DNA of 13,418 bases from a virus (taxonomy: Duplodnaviria > Heunggongvirae > Uroviricota > Caudoviricetes), in IMG/VR virus record IMGVR_UViG_2778261416_000004, positions 1 to 13,418 of that record; one strand, 5' to 3'. Every line of letters begins with the position of its first letter. Positions within the stretch are counted from its first letter, which is position 1. Both the position numbers and the translations under genes were made by a program. The notes beneath the pieces were generated by a model, which searched no databases, was not told the origin of the DNA, and worked only from the letters and a program-made list of their open reading frames with translations. Positions 1-13,418 of the stretch are shown here, piece by piece.

Positions 1-558
1 ATGAATACAGCTATAACTTTTTCTAACGAGTCACCAAAAGTCTTTTTCAAAGATGGTCGCCTGGTTACCACCTCTCAAGCTGTTGCCGACTACTTCGATA
101 AACAACATAAACACGTTTTAGCTAAGATTGACACACTCGACTGCTCTCCCGAATTTACATCAGCCAACTTTTCGGCCGATGTTCAGACTGTCGAAATTGG
201 CAACGGCGCAGAACGTGAATCACGATGCTACCTGATCACAAAAGACGGCTTCATGTTCCTCGTAATGGGATTTACTGGCAAAAAAGCAGCCAGACTAAAA
301 GAAGCTTACATTGAAAAATTTAACGCAATGGAAGAAGAACTCCACAAACGTCCTCCTGCAGCACAAAACTCCCCCGCCCCAAATAATGGATGCGCATTAC
401 TGATCCACTTCGATAAACACGGTCAGGTCGAGTTCACAGAAAAAGTCCCCGCCGATGCGATGGTATGCACGCTGGAACGGTTTAAATTTTATCTGGAGCA
501 ACATGGGTGGATCGTTGCCCGTAAAGAACAATTGGTGGAAAGGTTGATGCGGTTTTAA
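1..558 (+). CDS. rha: Rha-family phage regulatory protein (Phage_pRha-like)
   Basis: 185-aa ORF starting at window position 1. N-terminal 'LVTTSQAVADYFDKQHKHVL' and the 'DGFMFLVMGFTGKKAARLKEAYIEKFNAME' block match the Rha signature as I recall it. Stop TAA at 556-558, followed by a hairpin terminator. Confidence 0.7.
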   Translation: MNTAITFSNESPKVFFKDGRLVTTSQAVADYFDKQHKHVLAKIDTLDCSPEFTSANFSADVQTVEIGNGAERESRCYLITKDGFMFLVMGFTGKKAARLKEAYIEKFNAMEEELHKRPPAAQNSPAPNNGCALLIHFDKHGQVEFTEKVPADAMVCTLERFKFYLEQHGWIVARKEQLVERLMRF

Positions 559-1969: not shown

Positions 1970-2187
1970 AACCGCAGCACGTTCTTGCTTAAGACGTGCT
2001 GCGGCATAATCCCAATGATTACTCCCTGACAGGGTTCGTAGGCCACTCAATATCAGGTGCAGTTGATGTATCAACACGGTTCAGCAACACCCGATACTTT
2101 TTCCAGGCTTCCAGCAATGAGGTTTCTTCCTCCGTTGCAATTTCCAGATCTGCAGCATCCTGAAGCGGCGCAATATGCTCACTGGCT
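1970..2187. repeat. Direct repeat copy 2 (~215 bp), right flank of methyltransferase island; covers 3' end of tfa
   Basis: Aligns with 920-1137 by eye. Contains a perfect 11-bp-stem hairpin (1972-2004). Confidence 0.8.
1972..2004. terminator. Hairpin between convergent methyltransferase and tfa genes (candidate bidirectional terminator)
   Basis: ccgcagcacgt / acgtgctgcgg, 11-bp perfect stem with 11-nt loop, in the 54-bp gap between convergent stops. No clean U-tract, so terminator function is uncertain. Confidence 0.4.
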
Positions 2188-2603
2188 ACCTGCATCAGGT
2201 TGTTTTTTGTTTCTTCCGCCTCCCGGATCCGGAACAGTTTTTCTGCTTCCGTATCCTTCACCCAGGCTGTGCCGTTCCACTTCTGAAACTCCCCTTCCGG
2301 CGATAACCAGGTAACATTTTCCGGTAACGGACCGAGTTCAGAAATAAATAACTCGTCCCCTGACGCTACGTCATAAACCGTTTTACCCCGATGGTCTTCA
2401 ACGAGATGCCACGATGCCTCATCACTGTTGAAAACAGCCACAAAGCCAGCAGGAATATCTGGTGGTGCAATATCGGTACTGTTTGCTGGCAGACCTGTAT
2501 GAGGCGGAATATATGCGTCACCTTCACCAATAAATTCATTAGTTCCGGCCAGCAGATTATAAATTTTTATGGTCCGTGGTTGTTCACTCATTCTGAATGC
2601 CAT
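2019..2603 (-). CDS. tfa: Tail fibre assembly protein Tfa (lambda Tfa-like)
   Basis: 194-aa ORF; '[39 protein letters not shown]...' matches lambda Tfa as I recall it. Start ATG overlaps the stf stop (TAATG at 2601-2605), a typical stf-tfa coupling. Confidence 0.9.
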
Positions 2604-3976
2604 TATGCAAGCCTCACAATATAGTTAAATGCGATGTTTTTGACGGTGTTTTCCGCGTTACCCGCAGCGTTAACGGTGATGGTGTGTCCATGTGAACCAA
2701 TCGCAACGGAGTGCGTATGCGCACCAATACCTACAGTATGTGCATGTGCGCCAGAACTTGCTGCAGTACCAGACAGCGAGTGGGTATGAGCACCTGCTGA
2801 CTGTGTCTGAATACGTTGATAATACGATCTATAGGAAGAAGTCTCCGGGCTTACTTGATACTGTGAATTCTGGACATAAGTGAACCCACCGCCATCATAA
2901 AATGCTAACGCAGAACCGCCGCCTCCTGGCCAACGAATACCATTACCATGAGTATGAACACCGGCAGACCCCGTAGAGCCACTCAGACTGTGCGTATGCG
3001 CCCCGGTGTTATTCGTGGATTTAGTGCCGTAATCAAACGACGATGTGGTTTTCGTCCCCAAATCCGTACTGGATGCGCTGGCGCTGTGGGTGTGCGATTT
3101 AATGCCGTCCTGTTCCTGAGACAATACGGCCCGGCCACTGGCGGGTTTGCCCTTGATTGTCCAGCCGCGCATATCTGGAATAACACCTGAAGGATAGGCA
3201 ATAGCCAGTTTCGGATATGCTGCCTTATCAAACGTCTGCCCCTGCATGATTGCATAACCTGCAGGTGGTGTATCTGATGGCCACGGCAGCGGAACACCTG
3301 GCGGAAACGCTTCAATATTTGCCGAGCCGTCAAATTTTACGCCGTTAATTGTCCTTGCAGTTTGCAATTTGGTTGCTGTGCTTGCATTACCCGATAAAGA
3401 TCCAGTGATACCACCACTCGCGTTTAATTTAGTTGCAATTGTAACATTGCCAGTATGGTTACTAATTATAAACGGCCTTAAGCTATTGTGCGTACCAAGA
3501 CTGTTACCCGAATCTGTCAACATAAAATATGTGTTTGATCCATCATTTCGGATAAAGAATCCATAGTTGCCATAGGCAATACGCAGACCATTTGCTGACC
3601 TTGAAATAACCTCACCAGCAGCAGTTAAACCACCTGAAAGAGTCCCTCCAGTTAATGCCAATGCCCCAATATTTGAAGGGGTCAATGTGATATTTGCACT
3701 ACCATCAAATGACACACCGTTAATCGTTCTGGCTGCCTGAAGTTTCGTGGCGGTCGCAGCATTACCTGTAGTGTTTTGATTACCGGTAGCGTTGACTCCA
3801 GGCAAGTTGATATCTGCCGATCCATCAAATGCCACGCCCCCAATCTTACGTGCTGTCTTGATCTTGGTCGCAGTATCTGCGTTTCCGGTCAAATTACCAG
3901 TAACACTACCACCAACTTTTAGTCCATTACCGATGGACACCAACTCATGCAGGCGTCTCAGACGACCCACTGACAC
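2603..3976 (-). CDS. stf: Side tail fibre protein Stf, C-terminal portion (5'-truncated; GTG start, no SD)
   Basis: 457-aa ORF with repeated 'GNA(S/D)TATKLQ(T/A)ARTINGV(K/S)FDGSANI' fibre repeats and a His-rich 'GAHTHS' C-terminal region ending '[11 protein letters not shown]', like lambda Stf. The frame stays open upstream to 4066 with no ATG; first start-like codon is GTG at 3976. Confidence 0.8.
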
Positions 3977-4020
3977 TACCGGTGAGTTTAACGATACCTT
4001 CCATTTGACTGGCTCACTTT

Positions 4021-5874
4021 TTATGATGATGCCGGTGCATTTATCTCCAGCACCAGACTTTCTATCTCAACGCCATACGTTGCATTTTTGGTAATATCCG
4101 TCAGCGTCAGTGCATTTAGTCCCACTGTCAGACTGTCTTTTATGACCTGGAATGCCGGGCCAGCCACTCCATTCAGTTTCGGAGTAACCGTGGCACTGCC
4201 GGCGGTGAACACCAGCTCCAGCGTCTGCCAGTCGTTACTGTAATTCCCGAACTCGCCCAACTTTGTGTTTCCGGCTTTCTTGTGATGCATCAGATTCAGT
4301 TTGCCGTCTGTGGTCTGGGTGAAGAACGACATCAGGAACGGGTTACCAGTCCCGGTCATCGCCACGACGTCAGGTAACGCTACATCGGTATACAGATAAA
4401 TTCCCAGACCGAACTGGTTGTTGGTCAGTGCGCCTGACAGTCGAAACTTACAGCTCAGTCTGCCACCCCGTGTCAGCAGGGAGACTGCGTCATCCACCGG
4501 GCGCGTCAGGGACCAGGCTTTATTGCTCTGCTTGGTGATCTTAAATACACCATCTGACAACTGAATTCCGCCATTCTTAATGCTCCAGCCCTGCGCAGCA
4601 GCATCTCCGGCTGTCGGCAACAGGGAGATTGTGCGTACGGATGCATCTTCAGACGGCCCCGATGGCGTGTCGCCGCCGGGCGAGGGTTTGATTTCCGGTG
4701 CCTTACCACTAATGAAGGCTAAGGTGCGACCGGCTACGTTCAGAATAGCAGTTGCCATACGATCGGGAATAATGCCACGACGCGCCCATGAGCTGAAATG
4801 CGTCGGGCGATTTGATGATACCCAGTTTTTGTTCGTTCGGGATGCCGAACCGTAATAACCAGACCCGGCAATATCAGGATCTTCTGACGGGTTGTTTGTC
4901 GGTGTATTAACTCCGCTACCATCGGTCATAAAGGGAACAAAATAAATCTGCTGGGATTCTTTACCTTTATATGCACCATATACCACTTCATATTGCGTAC
5001 CGTGTTCTTGTTTCCACGCGTATGTCGTGTCGCCACAAATCCAGGGGACTGATGCCGGACTTCCACCGTGACACTGCGCTGCCAGCCCGGCAAGGTCAGC
5101 ACGGAACTGCTGTACCATTGCAAGAAATGCTGCTGGCTGCTGGGCGTAACTGGCATTCGTCATATCGAATTCCCCCTGCATCCAGCATATCGCCAGCAAA
5201 ACGTTTTTCGGGTTTTTCTGCAATGCTGCCTTCGTGCGGAAAAGCAGATCCTGATATAACGGCTTACCCACTCCCCAGCGAGCCGAATCCTGACTGGCTC
5301 CCGTGGACTCGCTGAATGTCCCCTCCGTGCCCTGGGTGAATGCCGAACCACCACGACAGCATGGTACCAGCAGGATCCCCGCATTATTAGGGATATACGG
5401 AAGCAGTTTTTTGGCAATATGTAAGCCCTGTCCGACACAGCCGTACTGCCCTTTGCTCAGGTCAGCCCGGGGATGGTTAATCGTACTCATATCCTGAACA
5501 TCATGCAGACAATGGTCAGCAGGAATGATGTCGTTAAATACGCATACTTCACCACCGGGAGTCACTGTGTTACGACGGGCCAGTTGCTTAATGCGCGGAT
5601 GGGGCGCATCGTATGAATCCGGAAGCGGAAGCCCTTCACCGTAAGCCATGGCATTGGATTGCCCGGCCAGTACGATGACGTAGTACCACTCCGGCTCAGT
5701 TGCACCACTGACGACCACATCACCTTCTGCTGCAATCGCCTGCATCAGGGTATAAGGGGTTATGGCCACCGGACTACCAAACGGCTGCCAGCCCTCCTTC
5801 AGTTTTTGTGTCAGTCGTTTCGCAAGGTCTGACGGCGATGCCGCCCTGACCACGTCATAGTGTTTAAATGCCAT
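4021..5874 (-). CDS. Prophage sialate O-acetylesterase (NanS-p-like; DUF1737 + SGNH/SASA esterase + C-terminal domain)
   Basis: 617-aa ORF. '[16 protein letters not shown]' is the SGNH block I motif (GQSN). N-terminus '[21 protein letters not shown]' is the DUF1737-type start seen in EHEC prophage NanS-p esterases. GGAGG SD 4 nt before the ATG. Confidence 0.8.
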
Positions 5875-6096: not shown

Positions 6097-6104
6097 GTCC
6101 ATAA

Positions 6105-6340
6105 GAAAGCCCCTCCGGAGAGGGGCTAAAGCCGCGTATCTGTATCATCATGCACATGGTGCCGGGTGCCTCCCGGTGAGTTCAGCCCGGTGCCACTAAA
6201 CCCGCGTCATTCTCGTTTTGATAATCAGAGATTATACCGTCACCAGTCGCCCCTCCGCTCAGGGGGATTCACCATGCGAAATTTTTTTAACAAATGCCCA
6301 GTCTGACAGGCAACTGTCAACTTACTGAATTGTGAGCAAC
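6105..6340. repeat. Non-coding direct repeat module A (~235 bp)
   Basis: Shares with module B a perfect 20-nt palindrome agcccctccggagaggggct (6108-6127), 'gcatggtgccgggtgcctcccggtga', 'gcccctccgc.cagggggattcaccatgc' and 'ctgaattgtgag' blocks. Also carries TTGACA and TATAAT hexamers on the minus strand and a CTGACAG-N4-CTGTCAA inverted repeat. Confidence 0.7.
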
Positions 6341-6591
6341 ATAGCATTTAACGGGGAACCTGTTTTCTGCAGTAAAAAGGCCCACCGGAGCGGATGGGCC
6401 TGGAAGGATAGCGGTCATGTGATGCCGGTTTCCCGGTAACTCAGCACCGGTATCTGAGTCAACGTTTTCTCTACTGGGTCATTTCCGATACGCCCTGCCT
6501 GCTGACAGGCTTTCATCACATCTGAAAATATAGCACCCTGACTGATACTGTAGTACCTAAGGTTCCAGAAACTGTGATGTATCCGGCACAG

Positions 6592-6808
6592 AAAAGCCCC
6601 TCCGGAGAGGGGCTGGAGAGTGGCGCTATGTGCCATTGCATGGTGCCGGGTGCCTCCCGGTGAATTCAGTACCAGCACCTGAATCCGCGATTATCCCATA
6701 TACCTACTCGCTGATTGCCCCTCCGCACAGGGGGATTCACCATGCCAGTTTCTTTTAACAAACTCCCCGCAAACCAGACAACAGTCAACCGCCTGAATTG
6801 TGAGACAT
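6592..6808. repeat. Non-coding direct repeat module B (~217 bp)
   Basis: Second copy of module A (roughly 75-80% identity by eye). The palindromic hairpin at 6595-6614 is followed on the minus strand by TTTTCTG. Confidence 0.7.
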
Positions 6809-6849: not shown

Positions 6850-6926
6850 TGGCGCGTTGTACTGGATTCGAACCAGTGACCGATTGCTTAGAAGGCAATT
6901 GCTCTGTCCGGCTGAGCTAACAACGC
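6850..6926 (-). tRNA. argO: tRNA-Arg (anticodon UCU)
   Basis: Manual fold of the reverse complement: acceptor GCGTTGT/ACAACGC, D-arm GCTC...GAGC, anticodon loop CTTCTAA, T-arm ACTGG-TTCGAAT-CCAGT, discriminator G, CCA; 77 nt. Confidence 0.85.
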
Positions 6927-6939
6927 AGGATACAGATAA

Positions 6940-7016
6940 TGGACCGCCTTCGGGGACCCGAACTCCGCGCAACCAGCTTCGAAGGCTGGCGCTCTTTCCT
7001 GATGAGCTAATGGCGG
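6940..7016 (-). tRNA. argN: tRNA-Arg-like (anticodon UCG), possibly degenerate
   Basis: Cloverleaf with anticodon loop CTTCGAA and 3' CCA, but an A.A mismatch in the acceptor stem, an A.C mismatch in the T-stem and an atypical T-loop TTCGGGT. Confidence 0.55.
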
Positions 7017-7023
7017 TATGTGA

Positions 7024-7099
7024 TGGTGGCCCTTGCTGGATTTGAACCAGCGACCTGGCGATTATGAGTCGCTCGCTCTCACCACTGAGCTAAAGGGCC
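7024..7099 (-). tRNA. ileZ: tRNA-Ile2/Met (anticodon CAU; ileX-like, likely lysidine-modified Ile)
   Basis: Reverse complement GGCCCTTTAGCTCAGTGGTGAGAGC...CTCATAA...GCTGGTTCAAATCCAGCAAGGGCCACCA gives a canonical 76-nt cloverleaf, closely resembling E. coli ileX as I recall it. Confidence 0.85.
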
Positions 7100-7148: not shown

Positions 7149-7577
7149 TCAAACGATTAAATCCTGAACTTCCCTGACTGTCTGCTCAAAACGTCCGGTC
7201 TCCAGTTCAACGCCAATCGCACGACGCCCGAGCGCCAGTGCCGCTTTTACCGTTGAACCTGAGCCCATAAAAAAATCTGCAACCAGGTCACCCGGACGAC
7301 TGCTTGCGCTGATTATCTGCTGCAGCATTTCTGCCGGTTTTTCGCACGGATGTTTCCCGGGATAGAACTGCACCGGTTTATGTGTCCACACATCCGTGTA
7401 CGGCACCTGCGCCGTCACACCAAAATACCGCCGCAGATGCTTATATTCACTCTGCAGCTCCACATACTGCCGGTTCAGTGACGTATACGTATCCACCAGC
7501 TGGTGGTGGGGCTTTTCCAGTTCACCGCGCTGATGTTTCTCTTCTGCTACCAGAACAGGTCGAAGTAATACCCGCAC
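7149..7577 (-). CDS. DNA (N6-adenine/N4-cytosine) methyltransferase, C-terminal portion (truncated or frameshifted)
   Basis: 142-aa ORF with 'GKHPCEKPAEMLQQIISASSRPGDLVADFFMGSGSTVKAALALGRRAIGVE', i.e. the HPxxKP and FxGSGST (SAM-binding) motifs of beta-class MTases such as YhdJ. No DPPY motif in this ORF; GTG start abuts the stop of the upstream ORF in another frame. Confidence 0.7.
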   Translation of the reverse strand: MRVLLRPVLVAEEKHQRGELEKPHHQLVDTYTSLNRQYVELQSEYKHLRRYFGVTAQVPYTDVWTHKPVQFYPGKHPCEKPAEMLQQIISASSRPGDLVADFFMGSGSTVKAALALGRRAIGVELETGRFEQTVREVQDLIV

Positions 7578-8018: not shown

Positions 8019-8174
8019 TTACTCCTCAGGTTCGTAAGCTGTGAAGACAGCGACCTCCGTCTGGCCGGTTCGGAGTCGTACCTCGCAGAGGTCTTTCCTC
8101 GTTACCAGTGCCGTCACTATGACGGTTAAACAGATGACGATCAGGGCGATTAACATCGCCTTTTGCTGCTTCAT
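8019..8174 (-). CDS. hok: Hok/Gef-family type I toxin (HokD/RelF-like small membrane protein)
   Basis: 51-aa product 'MKQQKAMLIALIVICLTVIVTALVTRKDLCEVRLRTGQTEVAVFTAYEPEE' aligns with plasmid R1 Hok ([38 protein letters not shown]). ATG at 8174 has an AAGGGGAAG SD; an in-frame upstream extension to 8231 (70-aa ORF in the track) could be a mok-like leader ORF. Confidence 0.85.
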   Translation of the reverse strand: MKQQKAMLIALIVICLTVIVTALVTRKDLCEVRLRTGQTEVAVFTAYEPEE

Positions 8175-8411
8175 AGCCTGCTTCCCCTTGCCTTTCGGCA
8201 CGTAAGAGGCTAACCTACATTTGTGAGACATAGATTGGGCCTCAGATTAATGTTAAGCGTCTTGCAGGACGCGAAATGTTAACTGGGGCTTTTCTCTATC
8301 TGCCTTTCAGTGTTCATGCCTGAGACAGATAGCCTCAAGCACCCGCAGCCATTCTACTTAACTCACGTCACCTCGCCAATATGAAATCAATCAGAAAGGT
8401 GATCCATAAAA

Positions 8412-9251: not shown

Positions 9252-9677
9252 CTAGTAACGTCTAAAATACCTAACATTTCCTTGATAAAATGCCAGTACA
9301 CGCTGCATAGCTTCGCTCTTCCGGCACTCGCGACAGATTATATTCAGGCGCCTGTCGTAGCGGCGTATTTCGCCGTCTGGTAACGACCAGATAAGGTCCG
9401 GATCAACCACTGCAGGTTTCTTCACCTTTGCCCTTGAGAGTTTTTTGCGAGCATTTTGCCAGTCCTTACGCGCCTGTTCAGACGGGAATAACCCGTAACC
9501 AGAGTTGTATACATCGCCACTGGCAACCAGCTCTCTGGCCAGAACGCTCATCAGATATCTTGTTGCCCCAGTTTTAGTTTCCAGTTGTCGTAACGTCTCG
9601 CGCCCACTCTGGCGTACGAGTTCAACAACCTGCCCTTTAATTTTCTCCCGCTCTTCTTGTGTAAAAACTTTTGCCAC
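9252..9677 (-). CDS. Hypothetical phage protein (141 aa; possible winged-HTH region)
   Basis: GTG start at 9677 preceded by AGGAGGG SD 4 nt upstream. 'TLRQLETKTGATRYLMSVLAREL' is HTH-like. Not recognised as Q, P or NinB. Confidence 0.6.
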   Translation of the reverse strand: MAKVFTQEEREKIKGQVVELVRQSGRETLRQLETKTGATRYLMSVLARELVASGDVYNSGYGLFPSEQARKDWQNARKKLSRAKVKKPAVVDPDLIWSLPDGEIRRYDRRLNIICRECRKSEAMQRVLAFYQGNVRYFRRY

Positions 9678-9717
9678 AAGCCCTCCTGAAAATTACCTCA
9701 TGACCAGAAATTAACAC

Positions 9718-10695
9718 TTACCCCCTGAAGCCCGGCGGAATTTCAGTGTCCGGTTCAGAAATGTGATTCACGCAACGCTGCGCAGGCGAACGCCCCAGGC
9801 GGATAACCAGTTCATCCCATTTTTCCCGGAGTTTTGCCGGACTCATGATGTTTTTTACCCAGAACGAATCCCGCTGGAGACGCCCAAACATTTCACAAAT
9901 TTGTCTGTGAGTTCTGCCATCCAGCATCCGCATTGTGCGAACGTCATTGGCCCATGCTGTCCAGTTGGGTTCTTTCGGTCTAGTGATCTCGCCATCATCG
10001 CTGGCCGCCTGCTCGTAAAGACTCACGATTCGTCCCCAGATCCACTGTGCGCACACCAAATCTTCCTGACTTCCCCACTGGCGTTTTTTCGCACTGAACA
10101 CAACCGCGTCAGGGTGTCGGGTTAAAAAATCCTGTTCAGCCGTCTGCGGGTCCGGTTGCGAAGCGTCCGGACAAGAAGATCTTTTATCTGACGGATCAGG
10201 TTTTAATACTGACGGATCGGGGTCAATCATCGCCCCCCTAATCGGCAGTTTTTTATCAACAGTTGATCCATCAAAATTTGACGGGTCAACCGTTGAGGGG
10301 TCAATATTTGACGGGTCAACTGTTAACGGGTCATTTTTTGCCGGGCTAATTTTTCTTTTCGGTTTATATGACTCACGCGCCGCCGCCGCAGCTGCTTCGA
10401 GTTTTTCCACATTAAGCCGATAGATATTGCTTACATTACGCCCACCGACCTTACGCTCTTCCTTCGTCAGCCAGCCCTCTTTCGCCAGTTCTGCAATAGC
10501 CGATTTCACTGTGGATTCACTTCTTGCACCGATCTGACGCCGGATAGTTTCAATGGCAGGCCATGACACGCCCTCGTCATTGCTGTAGTCTGCAAGACGG
10601 GCCATAACCGCCACCCTGGATAAGATCATGCCGGTGAAGGCGCACCCTTCCCAGACAAGACCATGAAGCTTGCTGCTCATAAAACCCCCGAACAC
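9718..10695 (-). CDS. Phage replication initiator (O-like; N-terminal winged helix, internal iteron-encoded repeats)
   Basis: 325-aa ORF; N-terminus 'AFTGMILSRVAVMARLADYSNDEGVSWPAIETIRRQIGARSESTVKSAIAELAKEGWL' is a typical replication-initiator wHTH. Internal 'DPSNIDPSTVDPSNFDGSTVD' repeats are encoded by DNA iterons. Likely true start is ATG at 10680 (GGGGGT SD); the track start is GTG at 10695. Confidence 0.8.
   Translation of the reverse strand: MFGGFMSSKLHGLVWEGCAFTGMILSRVAVMARLADYSNDEGVSWPAIETIRRQIGARSESTVKSAIAELAKEGWLTKEERKVGGRNVSNIYRLNVEKLEAAAAAARESYKPKRKISPAKNDPLTVDPSNIDPSTVDPSNFDGSTVDKKLPIRGAMIDPDPSVLKPDPSDKRSSCPDASQPDPQTAEQDFLTRHPDAVVFSAKKRQWGSQEDLVCAQWIWGRIVSLYEQAASDDGEITRPKEPNWTAWANDVRTMRMLDGRTHRQICEMFGRLQRDSFWVKNIMSPAKLREKWDELVIRLGRSPAQRCVNHISEPDTEIPPGFRG
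10185..10370. repeat. Candidate phage origin of replication: iterons plus adjacent A/T-rich stretch inside the initiator gene
   Basis: Four 15-bp-periodic units TTGACGGGTCAAC / TTGAGGGGTCAAT / TTGACGGGTCAAC / TTAACGGGTCATT at 10278, 10293, 10308 and 10323, plus degenerate copies at 10188-10228, followed by the A/T-rich 10336-10370. Confidence 0.6.
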
Positions 10696-10702
10696 CGTGC
10701 TT

Positions 10703-11020
10703 TTAGTGCATCACCACAGCATTCCCTGCCGGGCCGCCGCGATTCATCTGGTCATACAAAACAACCGCTGACGCAACAAAATCATCGACATCCTTCACCA
10801 GCCGATCCCTCCGTTCGACGATCTCACGATAATATTCAGAACTGTGGCTGCGCATACGGGCCACCAGCAAAGGCGGCATCGCCTTTTCGATCGCCGGTAA
10901 CAGAGCCTGCATTTTTTCAACAGCATCAGGGGTGTCTTTCTCTACCCAGCGGAAAATTTTCTGGGTATTGCGAGCCAGGGCTTCCGGATGGCTGTCGTCA
11001 TACAGTTCTGGGAACGTCAT
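10703..11020 (-). CDS. Hypothetical protein (about 105 aa) upstream of the replication initiator
   Basis: Plausible amino-acid composition, whereas the overlapping plus frame is a low-complexity P/S/H-rich read-through. ATG at 11020 (track start is TTG at 11026); weak SD. Function unknown. Confidence 0.5.
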   Translation of the reverse strand: MTFPELYDDSHPEALARNTQKIFRWVEKDTPDAVEKMQALLPAIEKAMPPLLVARMRSHSSEYYREIVERRDRLVKDVDDFVASAVVLYDQMNRGGPAGNAVVMH

Positions 11021-11064
11021 ACCCAACTCAAAATAAGCCTGGGTTAAGGGGAAATGAGGTCAGC

Positions 11065-11220
11065 ATGGATACTATCGATCTTGGCAACAGCGAATCTCTG
11101 GTATGTGGCGTGTTCCCCAACCAGGACGGTACGTTCACCGCGATGACGTATAACAAAAGCAAAACGTTTAAAACCGAAAATGGTGCCCGTCGCTGGCTGG
11201 AAAGAAACTCAGGTGAGTGA
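11065..11220 (+). CDS. ydfA: YdfA-like small protein (51 aa), first gene of dicB-type operon
   Basis: ATG at 11065 with GAGG SD. 'MDTIDLGNSESLVCGVFPNQDGTFTAMTYNKSKTFKTENGARRWLERNSGE'. The sizes and order 51-42-72-DicF-62-62 match the Qin dicB operon. It is the C-terminal end of the track's spurious 185-aa ORF. Confidence 0.7.
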   Translation: MDTIDLGNSESLVCGVFPNQDGTFTAMTYNKSKTFKTENGARRWLERNSGE

Positions 11221-11221
11221 T

Positions 11222-11350
11222 ATGGATTTCGACACAATCATGGAAAAGGCTTACGAAGAATACTTCGAAGGTCTTGCCGAAGGCGAAGAAGCTCTCAGCT
11301 TCAACGAATTTAAACAGGCGCTTTCCAGTTCGGCAAAATCTAACGGCTGA
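11222..11350 (+). CDS. ydfB: YdfB-like small protein (42 aa)
   Basis: ATG at 11222, 1 nt after the ydfA stop, with AGGTGAG SD. 'MDFDTIMEKAYEEYFEGLAEGEEALSFNEFKQALSSSAKSNG'. Absent from the ORF track because it is under 60 aa. Confidence 0.65.
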   Translation: MDFDTIMEKAYEEYFEGLAEGEEALSFNEFKQALSSSAKSNG

Positions 11351-11379
11351 TAAGCGAAACAGCACCGCGAGGAATCAGT

Positions 11380-11598
11380 ATGCAGAAACGAGAACCCGTC
11401 ATCATCGCGCCAGACTATACCGATGATGAACTTTATGAGTGGATGCACCAGAAAATTAATGCAGCGCAGGATCTGAAATGGGCCAATGAAGCCAGGGCTA
11501 AGCAGGCTGAAAATCTGTCCGCTCTGGAGCAGGATATCACTAATCTGGAAAAAGCAGCGGCATTAAGCATTGCCAGAATGATTACATACCCGCGTTAA
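11380..11598 (+). CDS. ydfC: YdfC-like small protein (72 aa)
   Basis: ATG with GAGGA SD; position and size match ydfC of the dicB operon. Confidence 0.7.
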   Translation: MQKREPVIIAPDYTDDELYEWMHQKINAAQDLKWANEARAKQAENLSALEQDITNLEKAAALSIARMITYPR

Positions 11599-11939
11599 TA
11601 GCTAACCAACGAAGCTAAGGTTGGTAATTAAGGAGTTCTCCACGGGTCAGGTGGAGTGCGTGCGCCGGACACGGGTGAGCATCCGGCACTGACAGCTTAC
11701 TGAAAGGATATGTCCCTGAAAAGTCAGGGCATAACGCGAAAGCGCACGGCGAAATTGGTCTCTCTGTACGGTGTCGTTAAATTTAGTTCGACCGTGCGCT
11801 TCCGGTTGTGGCACTCCGCGAAATGGCGCGGCGGTAAGTATGGCTGGGGTTTCCTCCATTGCTCCAGAAAATGCACCGGGTTGTCAGGTTGACCATACGC
11901 TTAAGTGACAACCCCGCTACAACGCCCTCTGTTATCAAT

Positions 11940-11997
11940 TTTCTGGTGACATTTGGCGGTATCAGTTTTACTCCGTGACTGCTCTGCCGCCCTTTTT
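11940..11997 (+). ncRNA. dicF: DicF small regulatory RNA (ftsZ-targeting sRNA of the dicB operon)
   Basis: 'tttctggtgacatttggcggtatcagttttactccgtgactgctctgccgcccttttt' matches the DicF sequence as I recall it, including the terminator stem GGCGG...CCGCC plus U-run. Confidence 0.75.
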
Positions 11998-12175
11998 AAA
12001 GTGAATTTTGTGATGCGGTGAATGCGGCTATGCGCACGCGGAACAGTTAAAGCAGTAAGGCGGTATTTTACGGGCGTAACGAGCATCAACTAACCCGGCG
12101 TTAATTGTTAACTGGTTAACGTCACCTGGAGGCACCAGGCACTGCATCACAAAATTCATTGTTGAGGACGCGATA

Positions 12176-12364
12176 ATGGAAACGTTATTACCAAACGTTA
12201 ATACGTCTGAAGGTTGTTTTGATATTGGTGTTCTGCTCAGTAACCGGGAGTTTACTGAAGATGCCATTAATATGAGGAAATATGAGCCTTATCTGCTCAA
12301 TGATAATTCCATACTTTCCCGAATTGCTCTTCTTGAACTTGGTATTTTCGGAGAACGTCAATGA
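12176..12364 (+). CDS. dicB: Cell division inhibitor DicB homolog (62 aa)
   Basis: 'METLLPNVNTSEGCFDIGVLLSNREFTEDAINMRK...' matches the DicB N-terminal half as I recall it. GAGGA SD. The C-terminal half looks divergent. Confidence 0.8.
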   Translation: METLLPNVNTSEGCFDIGVLLSNREFTEDAINMRKYEPYLLNDNSILSRIALLELGIFGERQ

Positions 12365-12549
12365 CTTCAGCATTTGCACTGATGATGACGGTTTTTCTTA
12401 TAACGGGTGAATCACAGAATGTGATTACCGGAATTTATGCAAGTAAAGAATCCTGCCTCCAGGCAAGAGACGAGCAAAAAATTTCTGGTGAATGCCTCCC
12501 GCTAAAAAAAGTATCGCTGTACCTGAATAACGAAACACCGGCTGGATAA
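12361..12549 (+). CDS. ydfD: YdfD-like small protein with N-terminal hydrophobic segment (62 aa)
   Basis: ATGA start/stop overlap with dicB and GGAGA SD. 'MTSAFALMMTVFLITG' is a TM/signal-like segment followed by a hydrophilic tail with two Cys. Confidence 0.7.
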   Translation: MTSAFALMMTVFLITGESQNVITGIYASKESCLQARDEQKISGECLPLKKVSLYLNNETPAG

Positions 12550-12644
12550 CCCTCCAGCCATATTAACACCATACCAACGGATTAAAAATGCCAGCAATGG
12601 CAGGGATTCGTTCACCCTGAAATCTGTAATGAGGTTAAAACAAA

Positions 12645-13418
12645 ATGAGTAAGGTCTTTATTTGCGCTGCTATTCCTGATGAACAGGCCATAAAAGAAGA
12701 TAGCGCTGTTGCGGTGGCCACTGCCATTGAAGCCGGTGATGAGCGTCGCGCACGCGCAAAATTTCATTGGCAATTTCTGGAGCAATTCCCTGCAGCTCAG
12801 GACTGCGCTTATAAATTTCTTGTTTGCGAGGATAAACCCGGTATACCCCGCCCTGCCCTCGATTCCTGGGATGCTGAATATATGCAGGAAAACCGCTGGG
12901 ATGAGGAGTCTGCTTCCTTTGTCCCGGTTGAGACTGAATCAGATCCGATGAACGTCACTTTTGACAAGCTGGCCCCTGAAGTACAGAACGCTGTCATGGT
13001 TAAGTTCGACACATGTGAAAACATCACCGTTGATATGGTTATTAGCGCACAGGAATTGTTGCAGGAAGACATGGCAACATTCGACGGACATATCGTTGAA
13101 GCGTTGATGAAAATGCCAGAAGTTAACGCCATGTACGCTCTCTGGCCTGGTGATGTGGATGCCGGAAACATTGACGGCAGCATCCATCGCTGGGCAAAAA
13201 ATGAAGTTATCGACAACGACCGCGAAGACTGGAAGCGTATCTCGGCATCAATGCGCAAACAGCCTGATGCCCTTCGCTACGACCGCCAGACTATTTTTGG
13301 CCTTGTCCGTGAGCGTCCGATCGACATTCACAAAGATCCCATAGCACTGAACAAATATATCTGCGAATACCTGACGACAAAGGGCGTGTTTGAGAATGAA
13401 GAAACAGACCTGGGCACT
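12645..13418 (+). CDS. ydfE: YdfE-like protein, 3'-partial (runs off the window end; at least 258 aa)
   Basis: Translated by hand from ATG 12645 (GAGG SD 9 nt upstream): 'MSKVFICAAIPDEQAIKEDSAVAVATAIEAGDERRARAKFHWQFLEQFPAAQD...'. Open to position 13418 with no stop; not in the ORF track because it has no stop in the window. Confidence 0.7.
   Translation, partial: MSKVFICAAIPDEQAIKEDSAVAVATAIEAGDERRARAKFHWQFLEQFPAAQDCAYKFLVCEDKPGIPRPALDSWDAEYMQENRWDEESASFVPVETESDPMNVTFDKLAPEVQNAVMVKFDTCENITVDMVISAQELLQEDMATFDGHIVEALMKMPEVNAMYALWPGDVDAGNIDGSIHRWAKNEVIDNDREDWKRISASMRKQPDALRYDRQTIFGLVRERPIDIHKDPIALNKYICEYLTTKGVFENEETDLGT

What the first reader, a model, noticed from the sequence alone, without database searches (positions are those of the whole stretch)
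10703..12549. dicB-type operon present without dicA/dicC immunity genes and abutting an oppositely oriented replication-module gene
ydfA-ydfB-ydfC-dicF-dicB-ydfD are intact with good SDs and tight coupling. The repressor pair that flanks this operon in Qin-type prophages (dicA/dicC) is not in the window. Only about 45 bp separate the ydfA start from the start of a minus-strand gene, leaving no room for a divergent promoter-operator region. Either the operon is promoterless or silent, or it is driven from within the neighbouring coding sequence. Unrepressed DicB and DicF would block cell division.
Basis: partly seen in the sequence, partly recalled or inferred. Interest (0 to 1): 0.5.

Follow-up and report, generated by a model that had tools for sequence, protein, structure and literature searches.

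The report
Promoterless dicBF operon after immunity-region deletion
The cell-division-inhibitor operon is intact but lacks its repressor because a 1,114-base deletion in a decaying E. coli prophage removed the repressor genes together with the operon's own promoter, so this is ordinary prophage decay rather than a regulatory puzzle.

Summary
ydfA, ydfB, ydfC, dicF, dicB and a ydfD-like gene are intact on the + strand. No dicA/dicC-type gene is in the window. Only 44 bp separate the ydfA ATG from the first ATG of a minus-strand ORF.

Comparison with near-identical prophages (99.5% identity) explains it. The window carries a clean 1,114-bp deletion at 11046/11047, with 4 bp of microhomology (GTTA). 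The deletion removed:
- the first 27 codons of ydaT (a CII-like regulator);
- the cro-like gene;
- the 139-aa repressor gene;
- all four operator palindromes;
- both divergent early promoters.

Only 18 nt, carrying the ribosome-binding site, remain before ydfA. The minus-strand neighbour is therefore a ydaT stump, not a replication gene.

No sigma-70-like promoter above chance remains upstream, and published work on K-12 found no promoter other than dicBp. The operon is most likely promoterless and silent, which resolves the toxicity paradox.

The element is a heavily decayed prophage between yciEFG-trp on the left and probably ompW on the right. It has at least three further deletions.

The junction is absent from 5,426 complete E. 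coli genomes. All ten sampled contexts of an identical YdfC keep a repressor upstream.

Low interest; already known biology.

The parts
9718..10695 (-). O-like replication initiator gene (320 aa from the ATG, 325 aa from the GTG). It appears intact, but its upstream promoter (pR equivalent) is deleted.
   Evidence: Pfam HTH_36 2.2e-06. 99.5% identical to the 'helix-turn-helix domain-containing protein' of BR1220 and O157 Z570.
10703..11046 (-). ydaT remnant (CII-like regulator). Residues about 28-141 of 141 are retained. The native start and first 27 codons are deleted. The remaining ORF starts at ATG 11020 or TTG 11026.
   Evidence: Pfam YdaT_toxin 1.3e-09. tblastn with full-length YdaT aligns residues 24-141 to window 11059-10706; residues about 24-27 of that alignment lie past the junction and are fortuitous. 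Alignment A1. phrog_163 'CII-like transcriptional activator' for the full-length reference.
11043..11046 (.). Deletion junction. The 4-bp microhomology GTTA is shared by both deletion endpoints. 1,114 bp are missing relative to L001 3648-4761 and L011 16076-17189.
   Evidence: MAFFT alignment. blastn segment coordinates overlap by 4 bp.
11047..11064 (+). The 18 nt of native ydfA leader that survive (AGGGGAAATGAGGTCAGC). They carry the Shine-Dalgarno region only.
   Evidence: Alignments A1 and A2.
11065..11220 (+). ydfA (DUF1391, 51 aa)
   Evidence: Pfam DUF1391 8.3e-27. phrog_751.
11222..11350 (+). ydfB (42 aa)
   Evidence: phrog_2061 2e-27. Identical DNA to the O157 ydfB.
11380..11598 (+). 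ydfC (72 aa)
   Evidence: phrog_1744 1e-39. The exact protein is listed in 13,600 blocks of the collection.
11941..11992 (+). dicF small RNA gene. It is the K-12 type, with one G-to-A difference.
   Evidence: Rfam RF00039, 77 bits, model positions 1-52 of 52. Alignment with K-12 dicF.
12176..12364 (+). dicB (62 aa)
   Evidence: Pfam DicB 6.4e-37, 62 of 62 positions. The DNA is 100% identical to the BR1220 dicB region.
12361..12549 (+). ydfD-like gene (DUF1482, 62 aa). It overlaps dicB by 4 nt.
   Evidence: Pfam DUF1482 1.5e-14. phrog_1092.
12645..13418 (+). 5' part of the ydfE/RecE-like exonuclease gene. It is cut by the end of the source contig.
   Evidence: phrog_2082 exonuclease 2.1e-187. 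The window end equals the contig end.

Best explanation
The window is a heavily decayed lambdoid prophage of E. coli. It sits next to yciEFG-trp on the left and, by comparison with intact relatives, next to ompW on the right.

The dicBF-type operon is the leftward early (pL-equivalent) operon of this prophage family. In intact relatives it is preceded by a repressor gene and a pL-type promoter carrying two operator palindromes. A cro-like gene and ydaT diverge from a second operator and promoter region.

In the window, one 1,114-bp deletion with 4 bp of microhomology (GTTA) removed everything between codon 27 of ydaT and position -18 of ydfA. The lost material is the ydaT 5' end, the cro-like gene, OR/pR, the repressor gene and OL/pL.

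Shown directly:
- the deletion and its endpoints;
- the loss of all repressor and operator sequences;
- the intactness of the operon;
- the absence of any sigma-70-like promoter above chance upstream.

Inferred:
- The operon is transcriptionally silent, or nearly so, because its only known promoter is gone. That is why an unrepressed DicB/DicF/YdfD module is tolerated.
- A deletion of the repressor alone would be counter-selected, because derepression of the dicBF operon (and, in Rac, of ydaS/ydaT) is reported to be toxic. Only deletions that take both promoters with the repressor would survive.
- The ORFs look intact because the deletion is recent. The flanks are 99.5-100% identical to intact prophages, so intactness does not indicate selection.
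For: Deletion and lost content:
- Alignment to O157:H7 Z570 (L001) is essentially identical on both sides of a single 1,114-column gap.
- blastn against BR1220 (L011) gives the same gap, 16076-17189, with a 4-bp overlap.
- The gap in the references holds the start of 'toxin YdaT family protein', a 93-aa 'transcriptional regulator' and a 139-aa protein. These match phrog_163 (CII-like), phrog_35 (repressor, Cro-like, YdaS-like) and phrog_5736 (transcriptional regulator).
- The operator palindrome TACCYAYRGGTA gives 7 strand-counted matches at four positions in L001 (4024, 4048, 4557, 4582), against 0.1 expected by chance. All four lie inside the deleted segment. The window has none.

Promoters:
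- The best promoter candidates of the references lie inside the deleted-equivalent DNA. They are O157 TTTACT-17-TATCCT (9.9 bits, inside the OL palindrome) and K-12 dicBp TTGACC-17-TAATCT (11.8 bits).
- The consensus scan finds 0 promoter-like sites on either strand in 9600-12700, against 3.2 expected.
- The best + strand PWM hit in 9700-12180 scores 9.2 bits, below the 10.2-bit median maximum of shuffles. The best hit in the 215 bp before ydfA scores 4.1 bits.
- Ragunathan et al. 2023 (PMC10448788) report that dicBF transcripts start at dicBp upstream of ydfA. [quoted passage not shown] Deleting dicA induced dicBp 22-fold.

Distribution and context:
- All ten sampled contexts of the identical YdfC protein have a repressor gene directly upstream and a divergent cro-like gene plus ydaT. 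These span four immunity types.
- No place in 5,426 complete E. coli genomes covers the junction.
- The same element carries further deletions: 3.44 kb (Q, rusA, DUF968), 1.55 kb (dnaC-like, DUF1627), and the lysis/head/tail genes.
Against: - No transcription data exist for this strain, so silence is inferred, not shown.
- Simple sigma-70 scans miss weak, alternative-sigma or activator-dependent promoters.
- Weak + strand candidates exist inside the operon: 11755-11783 TTGGTC-17-TAAATT upstream of dicF, and 11975-12002 GTGACT-16-TAAAGT upstream of dicB.
- Ragunathan et al. note that one older study (Cam et al. 1988) suggested a promoter upstream of dicB.
- The sequence comes from a draft assembly and the junction was found only in that assembly's contig. 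The junction has not been confirmed independently.
Confidence: 0.85

Rival explanations
1. The operon is still expressed at a low constitutive level. The source would be a weak cryptic promoter in the antisense of ydaT'/O or inside the operon, for example upstream of dicF or dicB. It would then act as a domesticated module, freed from phage control, that supplies some DicF and DicB (phage exclusion through ManXYZ, metabolic regulation).
For: - All ORFs and dicF are intact.
- Weak PWM candidates lie at 11755-11783 and 11975-12002.
- An older report of a promoter upstream of dicB is cited in PMC10448788.
- The same paper discusses DicB and DicF as having host-beneficial roles.
Against: - The candidates score below the median best score of shuffled sequence, and none passes the 9-of-12 consensus scan.
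- Primer extension and Northern data in K-12 gave no evidence of internal promoters.
- Intactness is uninformative, because the flanks are 99.5-100% identical to intact prophages, so the deletion is recent.
- The allele is seen in one assembly only.
Confidence: 0.1
2. The junction is an assembly or sequencing artefact of a draft genome with several similar lambdoid prophages. The real locus would then keep its immunity region.
For: - The window is the terminal 13.4 kb of a 201.8-kb draft contig that breaks inside the exonuclease gene, a typical prophage repeat.
- The junction is unique to this assembly.
Against: - The endpoints share only 4 bp, far too little for repeat collapse by an assembler (general knowledge of assemblers). 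The sequence on both sides is collinear with a single reference prophage.
- The index records the contig for two samples.
- The same element carries several other clean deletions typical of real prophage decay.
Confidence: 0.04
3. The operon is controlled in trans by a repressor of the same immunity type encoded by another prophage elsewhere in the genome.
For: E. coli genomes commonly carry several copies of this module: a median of 2 and up to 12 places per genome.
Against: - No operator site (TACCYAYRGGTA, one mismatch allowed) and no promoter remain in the window for a repressor to act on.
- Trans repression is therefore unnecessary and has no target.
Confidence: 0.01

Closest known systems
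[quoted passage not shown]
   Same: - Same gene order.
- ydfA, ydfB and ydfC are near-identical.
- dicF is K-12 type with one substitution.
- Same ydfC-dicF spacer architecture.
- Both are followed by a ydfE-type exonuclease gene.
   Different: - K-12 keeps dicA, dicC, three operators and dicBp (TTGACC-17-TAATCT, about 78 bp before ydfA). All equivalent DNA is deleted here.
- The dicB and ydfD alleles diverge from K-12 after about codon 17 of dicB.
Intact-immunity prophages of the same lineage: E. coli BR1220 (NZ_CP093068.1, next to ompW) and the O157:H7 Z570 copy (NZ_CP062771.1)
   Same: 99.5-100% identity across ydaT, the O-like gene, DUF977, queH, hok, the tRNAs, the NanS-p-type esterase, dicF, dicB, DUF1482 and the exonuclease.
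   Different: - They retain the 139-aa repressor, the 93-aa Cro-like gene, four operator palindromes, full-length ydaT, the dnaC-like gene, DUF1627, DUF968, rusA, Q, the full methyltransferase and the lysis genes.
- The window lacks all of these.
RacR-YdaS-YdaT switch of Rac, and the PaaR2/YdaS/YdaT switch of CP-933P (repressor, Cro-like and CII-like regulators)
   Same: The deleted module has the same layout: a repressor divergent from a YdaS-like Cro and a YdaT CII-equivalent.
   Different: - The immunity specificity differs. The 139-aa repressor has no Pfam hit.
- Here the module is destroyed, not functional.
Defective lambda-type prophages that have lost the immunity and early-promoter region by deletion (classical survivors of prophage induction; from general knowledge, not tested here)
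   Same: The repressor is lost together with pL and pR, so toxic early genes become harmless. The element then persists as a cryptic remnant.
   Different: The history of this strain is unknown. Whether the deletion was selected by induction is an inference.

Membership tests
dicBF (Qin-type pL) operon of lambdoid prophages | Gene order ydfA-ydfB-ydfC-dicF-dicB-ydfD on one strand, followed by an exonuclease gene | tested here: met
   ORFs, Pfam and PHROG hits, and alignment to K-12 Qin and O157 copies.
dicBF (Qin-type pL) operon of lambdoid prophages | DicF RNA gene matching the curated family model | tested here: met
   RF00039, 77 bits against a gathering score of 48, model positions 1-52 of 52.
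dicBF (Qin-type pL) operon of lambdoid prophages | DicB protein | tested here: met
   PF05358, 125.5 bits, full length.
dicBF (Qin-type pL) operon of lambdoid prophages | Operator-controlled promoter (dicBp / pL equivalent) upstream of ydfA | tested here: not met
   Only 18 nt of native leader remain. There are no operator motifs and no promoter-like site. The equivalent DNA lies inside the 1,114-bp deletion.
dicBF (Qin-type pL) operon of lambdoid prophages | Adjacent CI-like repressor and divergent Cro-like gene | tested here: not met
   tblastn is negative for DicA, DicC, the 139-aa repressor and the 93-aa Cro-like protein in the window and in 20.8 kb of the source contig. Both genes are present in 10 of 10 sampled relatives.
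Lambdoid immunity switch with YdaS/YdaT (Rac / CP-933P type) | Full-length YdaT (CII equivalent) downstream of a Cro-like gene | tested here: not met
   Only residues about 28-141 of 141 remain. The start codon and the Cro-like gene are deleted.
Cryptic (defective) prophage | Loss of genes essential for lytic growth relative to close intact relatives, while embedded in the host chromosome | tested here: met
   Missing are Q, rusA, DUF968, the dnaC-like gene, DUF1627, the immunity region, and the lysis, head and tail genes. Host genes yciE/F/G and trpA-E lie directly to the left in the source contig.
Cryptic (defective) prophage | Transcriptional silence of the remaining early genes | not testable with these tools
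   This needs RNA data from the source strain. Only promoter-motif scans were possible.

The most novel reading that the evidence does not exclude
The promoterless dicBF module is not dead. A weak cryptic promoter, either antisense within ydaT'/O or internal upstream of dicF or dicB, would give low constitutive DicF and DicB. That would make it a domesticated phage-exclusion and sRNA module uncoupled from any prophage switch, and such immunity-region deletions would be a route to domestication.
Probability: 0.08. Interest if true: 0.35.

Novelty: already known. Interest (0 to 1): 0.12.

Why it matters
It matters little beyond annotation. The case shows that a toxic prophage operon found without its repressor should first be checked for a deletion that also took the promoter. 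It also illustrates how a lambdoid prophage can lose its immunity switch without killing the host.

For annotators:
- The 105-aa 'YdaT family toxin' call here is a 5'-truncated pseudogene.
- This dicF copy should not be assumed to be expressed when counting functional dicF or dicB copies in a genome.

Tried and rejected
- **Is this a natural alternative module arrangement?** I searched a 201-nt query spanning the junction against 5,426 complete E. coli genomes. No place covered 80% or more of it; matches stopped at the junction. Rejected.
- **Is the junction found elsewhere?** Exact junction strings gave 0 hits in species-representative genomes and 0 hits in JGI metagenome contigs. Spread of the allele could not be shown.
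- **Is a repressor just outside the window?** The left flank of the source contig is yciE/F/G and trp. The right flank is the contig end; in relatives it holds exonuclease, xis, int and ompW. Rejected.
- **Does the 105-aa YdaT product mark the deletion?** No. The same 105-aa product is called from the internal ATG in several assemblies that lack this junction, two of which (L006, L008) visibly keep a full immunity region. Only L005/L016, the source contig, has the junction.
- **Does the junction create a fusion promoter?** The best PWM score in the 215 bp before ydfA is 4.1 bits. Rejected.
- **Is the 185-aa ORF 10663-11220, in frame with ydfA, a real extended gene?** It is the antisense of ydaT' read through the junction. 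Rejected as an artefact.
- **Reading Cam et al. 1988 (PMC338298) for the proposed promoter upstream of dicB.** The paper is not held.

Full report
**What is in the window**

On the + strand, from 11065 to 12549, lie these features:
- ydfA, 11065-11220 (DUF1391);
- ydfB, 11222-11350;
- ydfC, 11380-11598;
- dicF, 11941-11992 (Rfam RF00039, 77 bits, full length);
- dicB, 12176-12364 (Pfam DicB, 125.5 bits);
- a ydfD-like DUF1482 gene, 12361-12549.

The 5' part of a ydfE/RecE-type exonuclease gene follows, from 12645 to the window end.

On the - strand, immediately to the left, lie:
- a 105/107-aa ORF, 10703-11020/11026, with a YdaT_toxin domain;
- an O-like replication initiator, 9718-10695 (HTH_36);
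- DUF977, queH and hok.

The distance between the ATG at 11020 (-) and the ydfA ATG at 11065 (+) is 44 bp. tblastn finds no DicA, DicC or other repressor or Cro homologue in the window. The abutting gene, however, is a ydaT fragment, not a replication gene.

**Why the repressor pair is missing**

A megablast of 10400-12600 against 5,426 complete E. coli genomes gave best hits in O157:H7 and other strains. In those hits the 2.2-kb query is spread over 3.65 kb of record.

Alignment to O157:H7 Z570 (L001) is essentially identical on both sides of a single gap of 1,114 columns. blastn to the closest relative, E. coli BR1220 (L011), gives the same gap. Window 9714-11046 matches L011 14742-16075 at 99.55%. 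The alignment then resumes at window 11043 = L011 17186. The two segments overlap by 4 bp, the GTTA microhomology.

In both references the missing DNA contains:
- the first 27 codons of ydaT (phrog_163, CII-like activator);
- a 93-aa Cro-like regulator (phrog_35, weak YdaS_toxin hit);
- a 139-aa repressor (phrog_5736);
- about 250 bp of the roughly 265-bp non-coding stretch between the repressor gene and ydfA.

The palindrome TACCYAYRGGTA gives 7 strand-counted matches at four positions in L001, against 0.1 expected by chance. Two lie between the cro-like gene and the repressor gene (4024, 4048). Two lie between the repressor gene and ydfA (4557, 4582). All four fall inside the deleted segment. 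The window has none.

**Promoters**

In the O157-type reference, the best sigma-70 candidate between the repressor gene and ydfA is TTTACT-17-TATCCT (9.9 bits). It is embedded in the OL palindrome pair. In K-12 Qin, the corresponding TTGACC-17-TAATCT (11.8 bits) lies about 78 bp upstream of ydfA.

Homology among the three loci upstream of ydfA starts only about 37 bp before the ATG. The window retains just 18 nt of that, AGGGGAAATGAGGTCAGC, which carries the ribosome-binding site.

In the window:
- The consensus scan finds no promoter-like site on either strand in 9600-12700, against 3.2 expected.
- My PWM scan finds nothing on the + strand of 9700-12180 above the median best score of shuffled sequence (9.2 against 10.2 bits).
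- Nothing scores better than 4.1 bits in the 215 bp before ydfA.

Ragunathan et al. 2023 (PMC10448788) report the following for K-12:
- The polycistronic transcript starts at dicBp, upstream of ydfA.
- Operator sequences lie between dicA and dicBp.
- Deleting dicA induces dicBp 22-fold.
- They found no evidence for another promoter.
- An older paper had suggested a promoter upstream of dicB. I could not read that paper.

**Most likely mechanism**

Shown: one microhomology-mediated deletion removed the repressor, the Cro-like gene, both operator regions, both divergent early promoters and the start of ydaT.

Inferred: the dicBF-type operon on one side, and ydaT'-O-DUF977 on the other, are now promoterless and essentially silent. 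This explains how a cell tolerates intact dicB, dicF and ydfD without a repressor. Derepression of the dicBF operon is reported to be toxic (PMC10448788, abstract). Derepression of ydaS/ydaT is reported to be toxic in Rac (abstracts). A deletion of the repressor alone should therefore be counter-selected, and one that takes the promoters too would be tolerated. The intact ORFs do not argue for selection, because the flanks are 99.5-100% identical to intact prophages, so the deletion is recent.

**Context**

The window is identical (0 mismatches over 12,716 bp) to the end of draft contig NOSF01000005.1 of assembly GCA_002521955.1. Its right end is the contig end.

About 0.65 kb to the left of the window, the contig continues into host genes yciE/F/G and trpA-E. 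In BR1220 the right side continues with exonuclease, xis, int and ompW.

Relative to BR1220, the element has also lost:
- 3.44 kb holding Q, rusA, DUF968 and the 5' part of a methyltransferase gene;
- 1.55 kb holding a dnaC-like gene and DUF1627;
- 276 bp, in frame, of the exonuclease gene;
- the lysis, head and tail genes. The NanS-p-type esterase gene is followed directly by a tail-fibre gene.

It is a small cryptic remnant.

**How unusual the arrangement is**

In ten diverse genomic contexts of the identical YdfC protein, a repressor gene lies directly upstream of the operon in every case, and a cro-like gene plus ydaT diverge from it. These contexts represent four immunity types:
- 139-aa repressor with the 93-aa Cro-like gene;
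- PaaR2-like with paaA2-parE2;
- DicA-like HTH_3 with P22_Cro;
- S24-peptidase CI with P22_Cro.

The junction itself is found in none of 5,426 complete E. coli genomes. It is also absent from species-representative genomes and from metagenome contigs. It is a private deletion allele, not a new architecture.

**Rivals**

- **Low-level expression from a cryptic or internal promoter** cannot be excluded without RNA data. Weak candidates lie at 11755-11783 and 11975-12002, but both score below chance level.
- **An assembly artefact** is unlikely. Four base pairs of homology cannot cause repeat collapse, and the index records the contig for two samples. The junction still lacks independent confirmation.
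- **Trans repression from another prophage** has no target, because no operator remains.

**Verdict**

The biology is known: a dicBF operon in a lambdoid prophage undergoing ordinary decay. Interest is low.

Noticed in passing
window 7542-7551 (junction); truncated methyltransferase ORF 7149-7577 (-): A second deletion of about 3.44 kb relative to BR1220 (L011 7611-11050). It removes the 5' part of a DNA methyltransferase gene, a small ORF, the Q-type antiterminator, rusA and most of DUF968. The blastn segments overlap by 10 bp at the junction, which suggests a short direct repeat.
   Followed up: partly
window 9687-9713: A third deletion. The 1,545 bp of BR1220 (L011 13197-14741) that carry the dnaC-like ATP-binding gene and DUF1627 are replaced by 27 unaligned bp. 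The O-like gene is therefore followed directly by DUF977.
   Followed up: partly
window 2603-5874: The NanS-p-type SASA esterase gene (4021-5874, -) is followed directly by a tail-fibre gene (2603-3976, -) and a tail-fibre assembly gene (2019-2603, -). The holin, lysozyme, head and tail genes found in relatives are absent. The same 455-aa tail-fibre protein occurs in only one other contig, from a metagenome (L017), in the same yciEFG-trp context.
   Followed up: partly
window 13134-13135: A 276-bp in-frame gap (92 codons) in the exonuclease gene relative to BR1220. The window ends inside this gene because the source contig ends there.
   Followed up: no
window 11599-11940, compared with L001 5336-5710: The locus is a mosaic. 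The ydfC-dicF spacer is of K-12 Qin type and lacks the 124-aa ORF, about 340 bp, present in the O157 Z570 copy. The window's dicF is the K-12 type with one G-to-A change. The Z570 copy has a dicF variant 17 nt shorter in the terminator hairpin region. BR1220 carries a different module in place of ydfB and ydfC.
   Followed up: partly
window 10663-11220 (+): A 185-aa ORF in frame with ydfA runs antisense through the ydaT stump and across the deletion junction. It is an accidental open frame, not a gene, but a gene caller could extend ydfA into it.
   Followed up: yes
window 11134 (ydfA codon 24): A C-to-A substitution changes Thr to Asn in YdfA. K-12 and O157 Z570 both have ACC here.
   Followed up: no
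window 2062-2260, 6097-6306, 6584-6774, 6853-7099, 8169-8344 (all - strand): Rfam hits: IS009 inside the tail-fibre assembly gene, two STnc100 copies, three tRNA genes (annotated Arg, Arg and Ile in BR1220) and sok next to hok (8019-8231). This is a typical Q-proximal cargo region of Stx-like lambdoid prophages, retained although Q itself is deleted.
   Followed up: no
window 1-558 (+), and L016 13415-13690: A Rha-family (Phage_pRha) gene and, just outside the window, a Phage_ASH gene sit at the prophage end next to yciEFG-trp. This antirepressor-like pair is extremely widespread: the exact protein is listed in 24,460 blocks of the collection. A SAM-methyltransferase cargo gene lies nearby at 1296-1964.
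   Followed up: no
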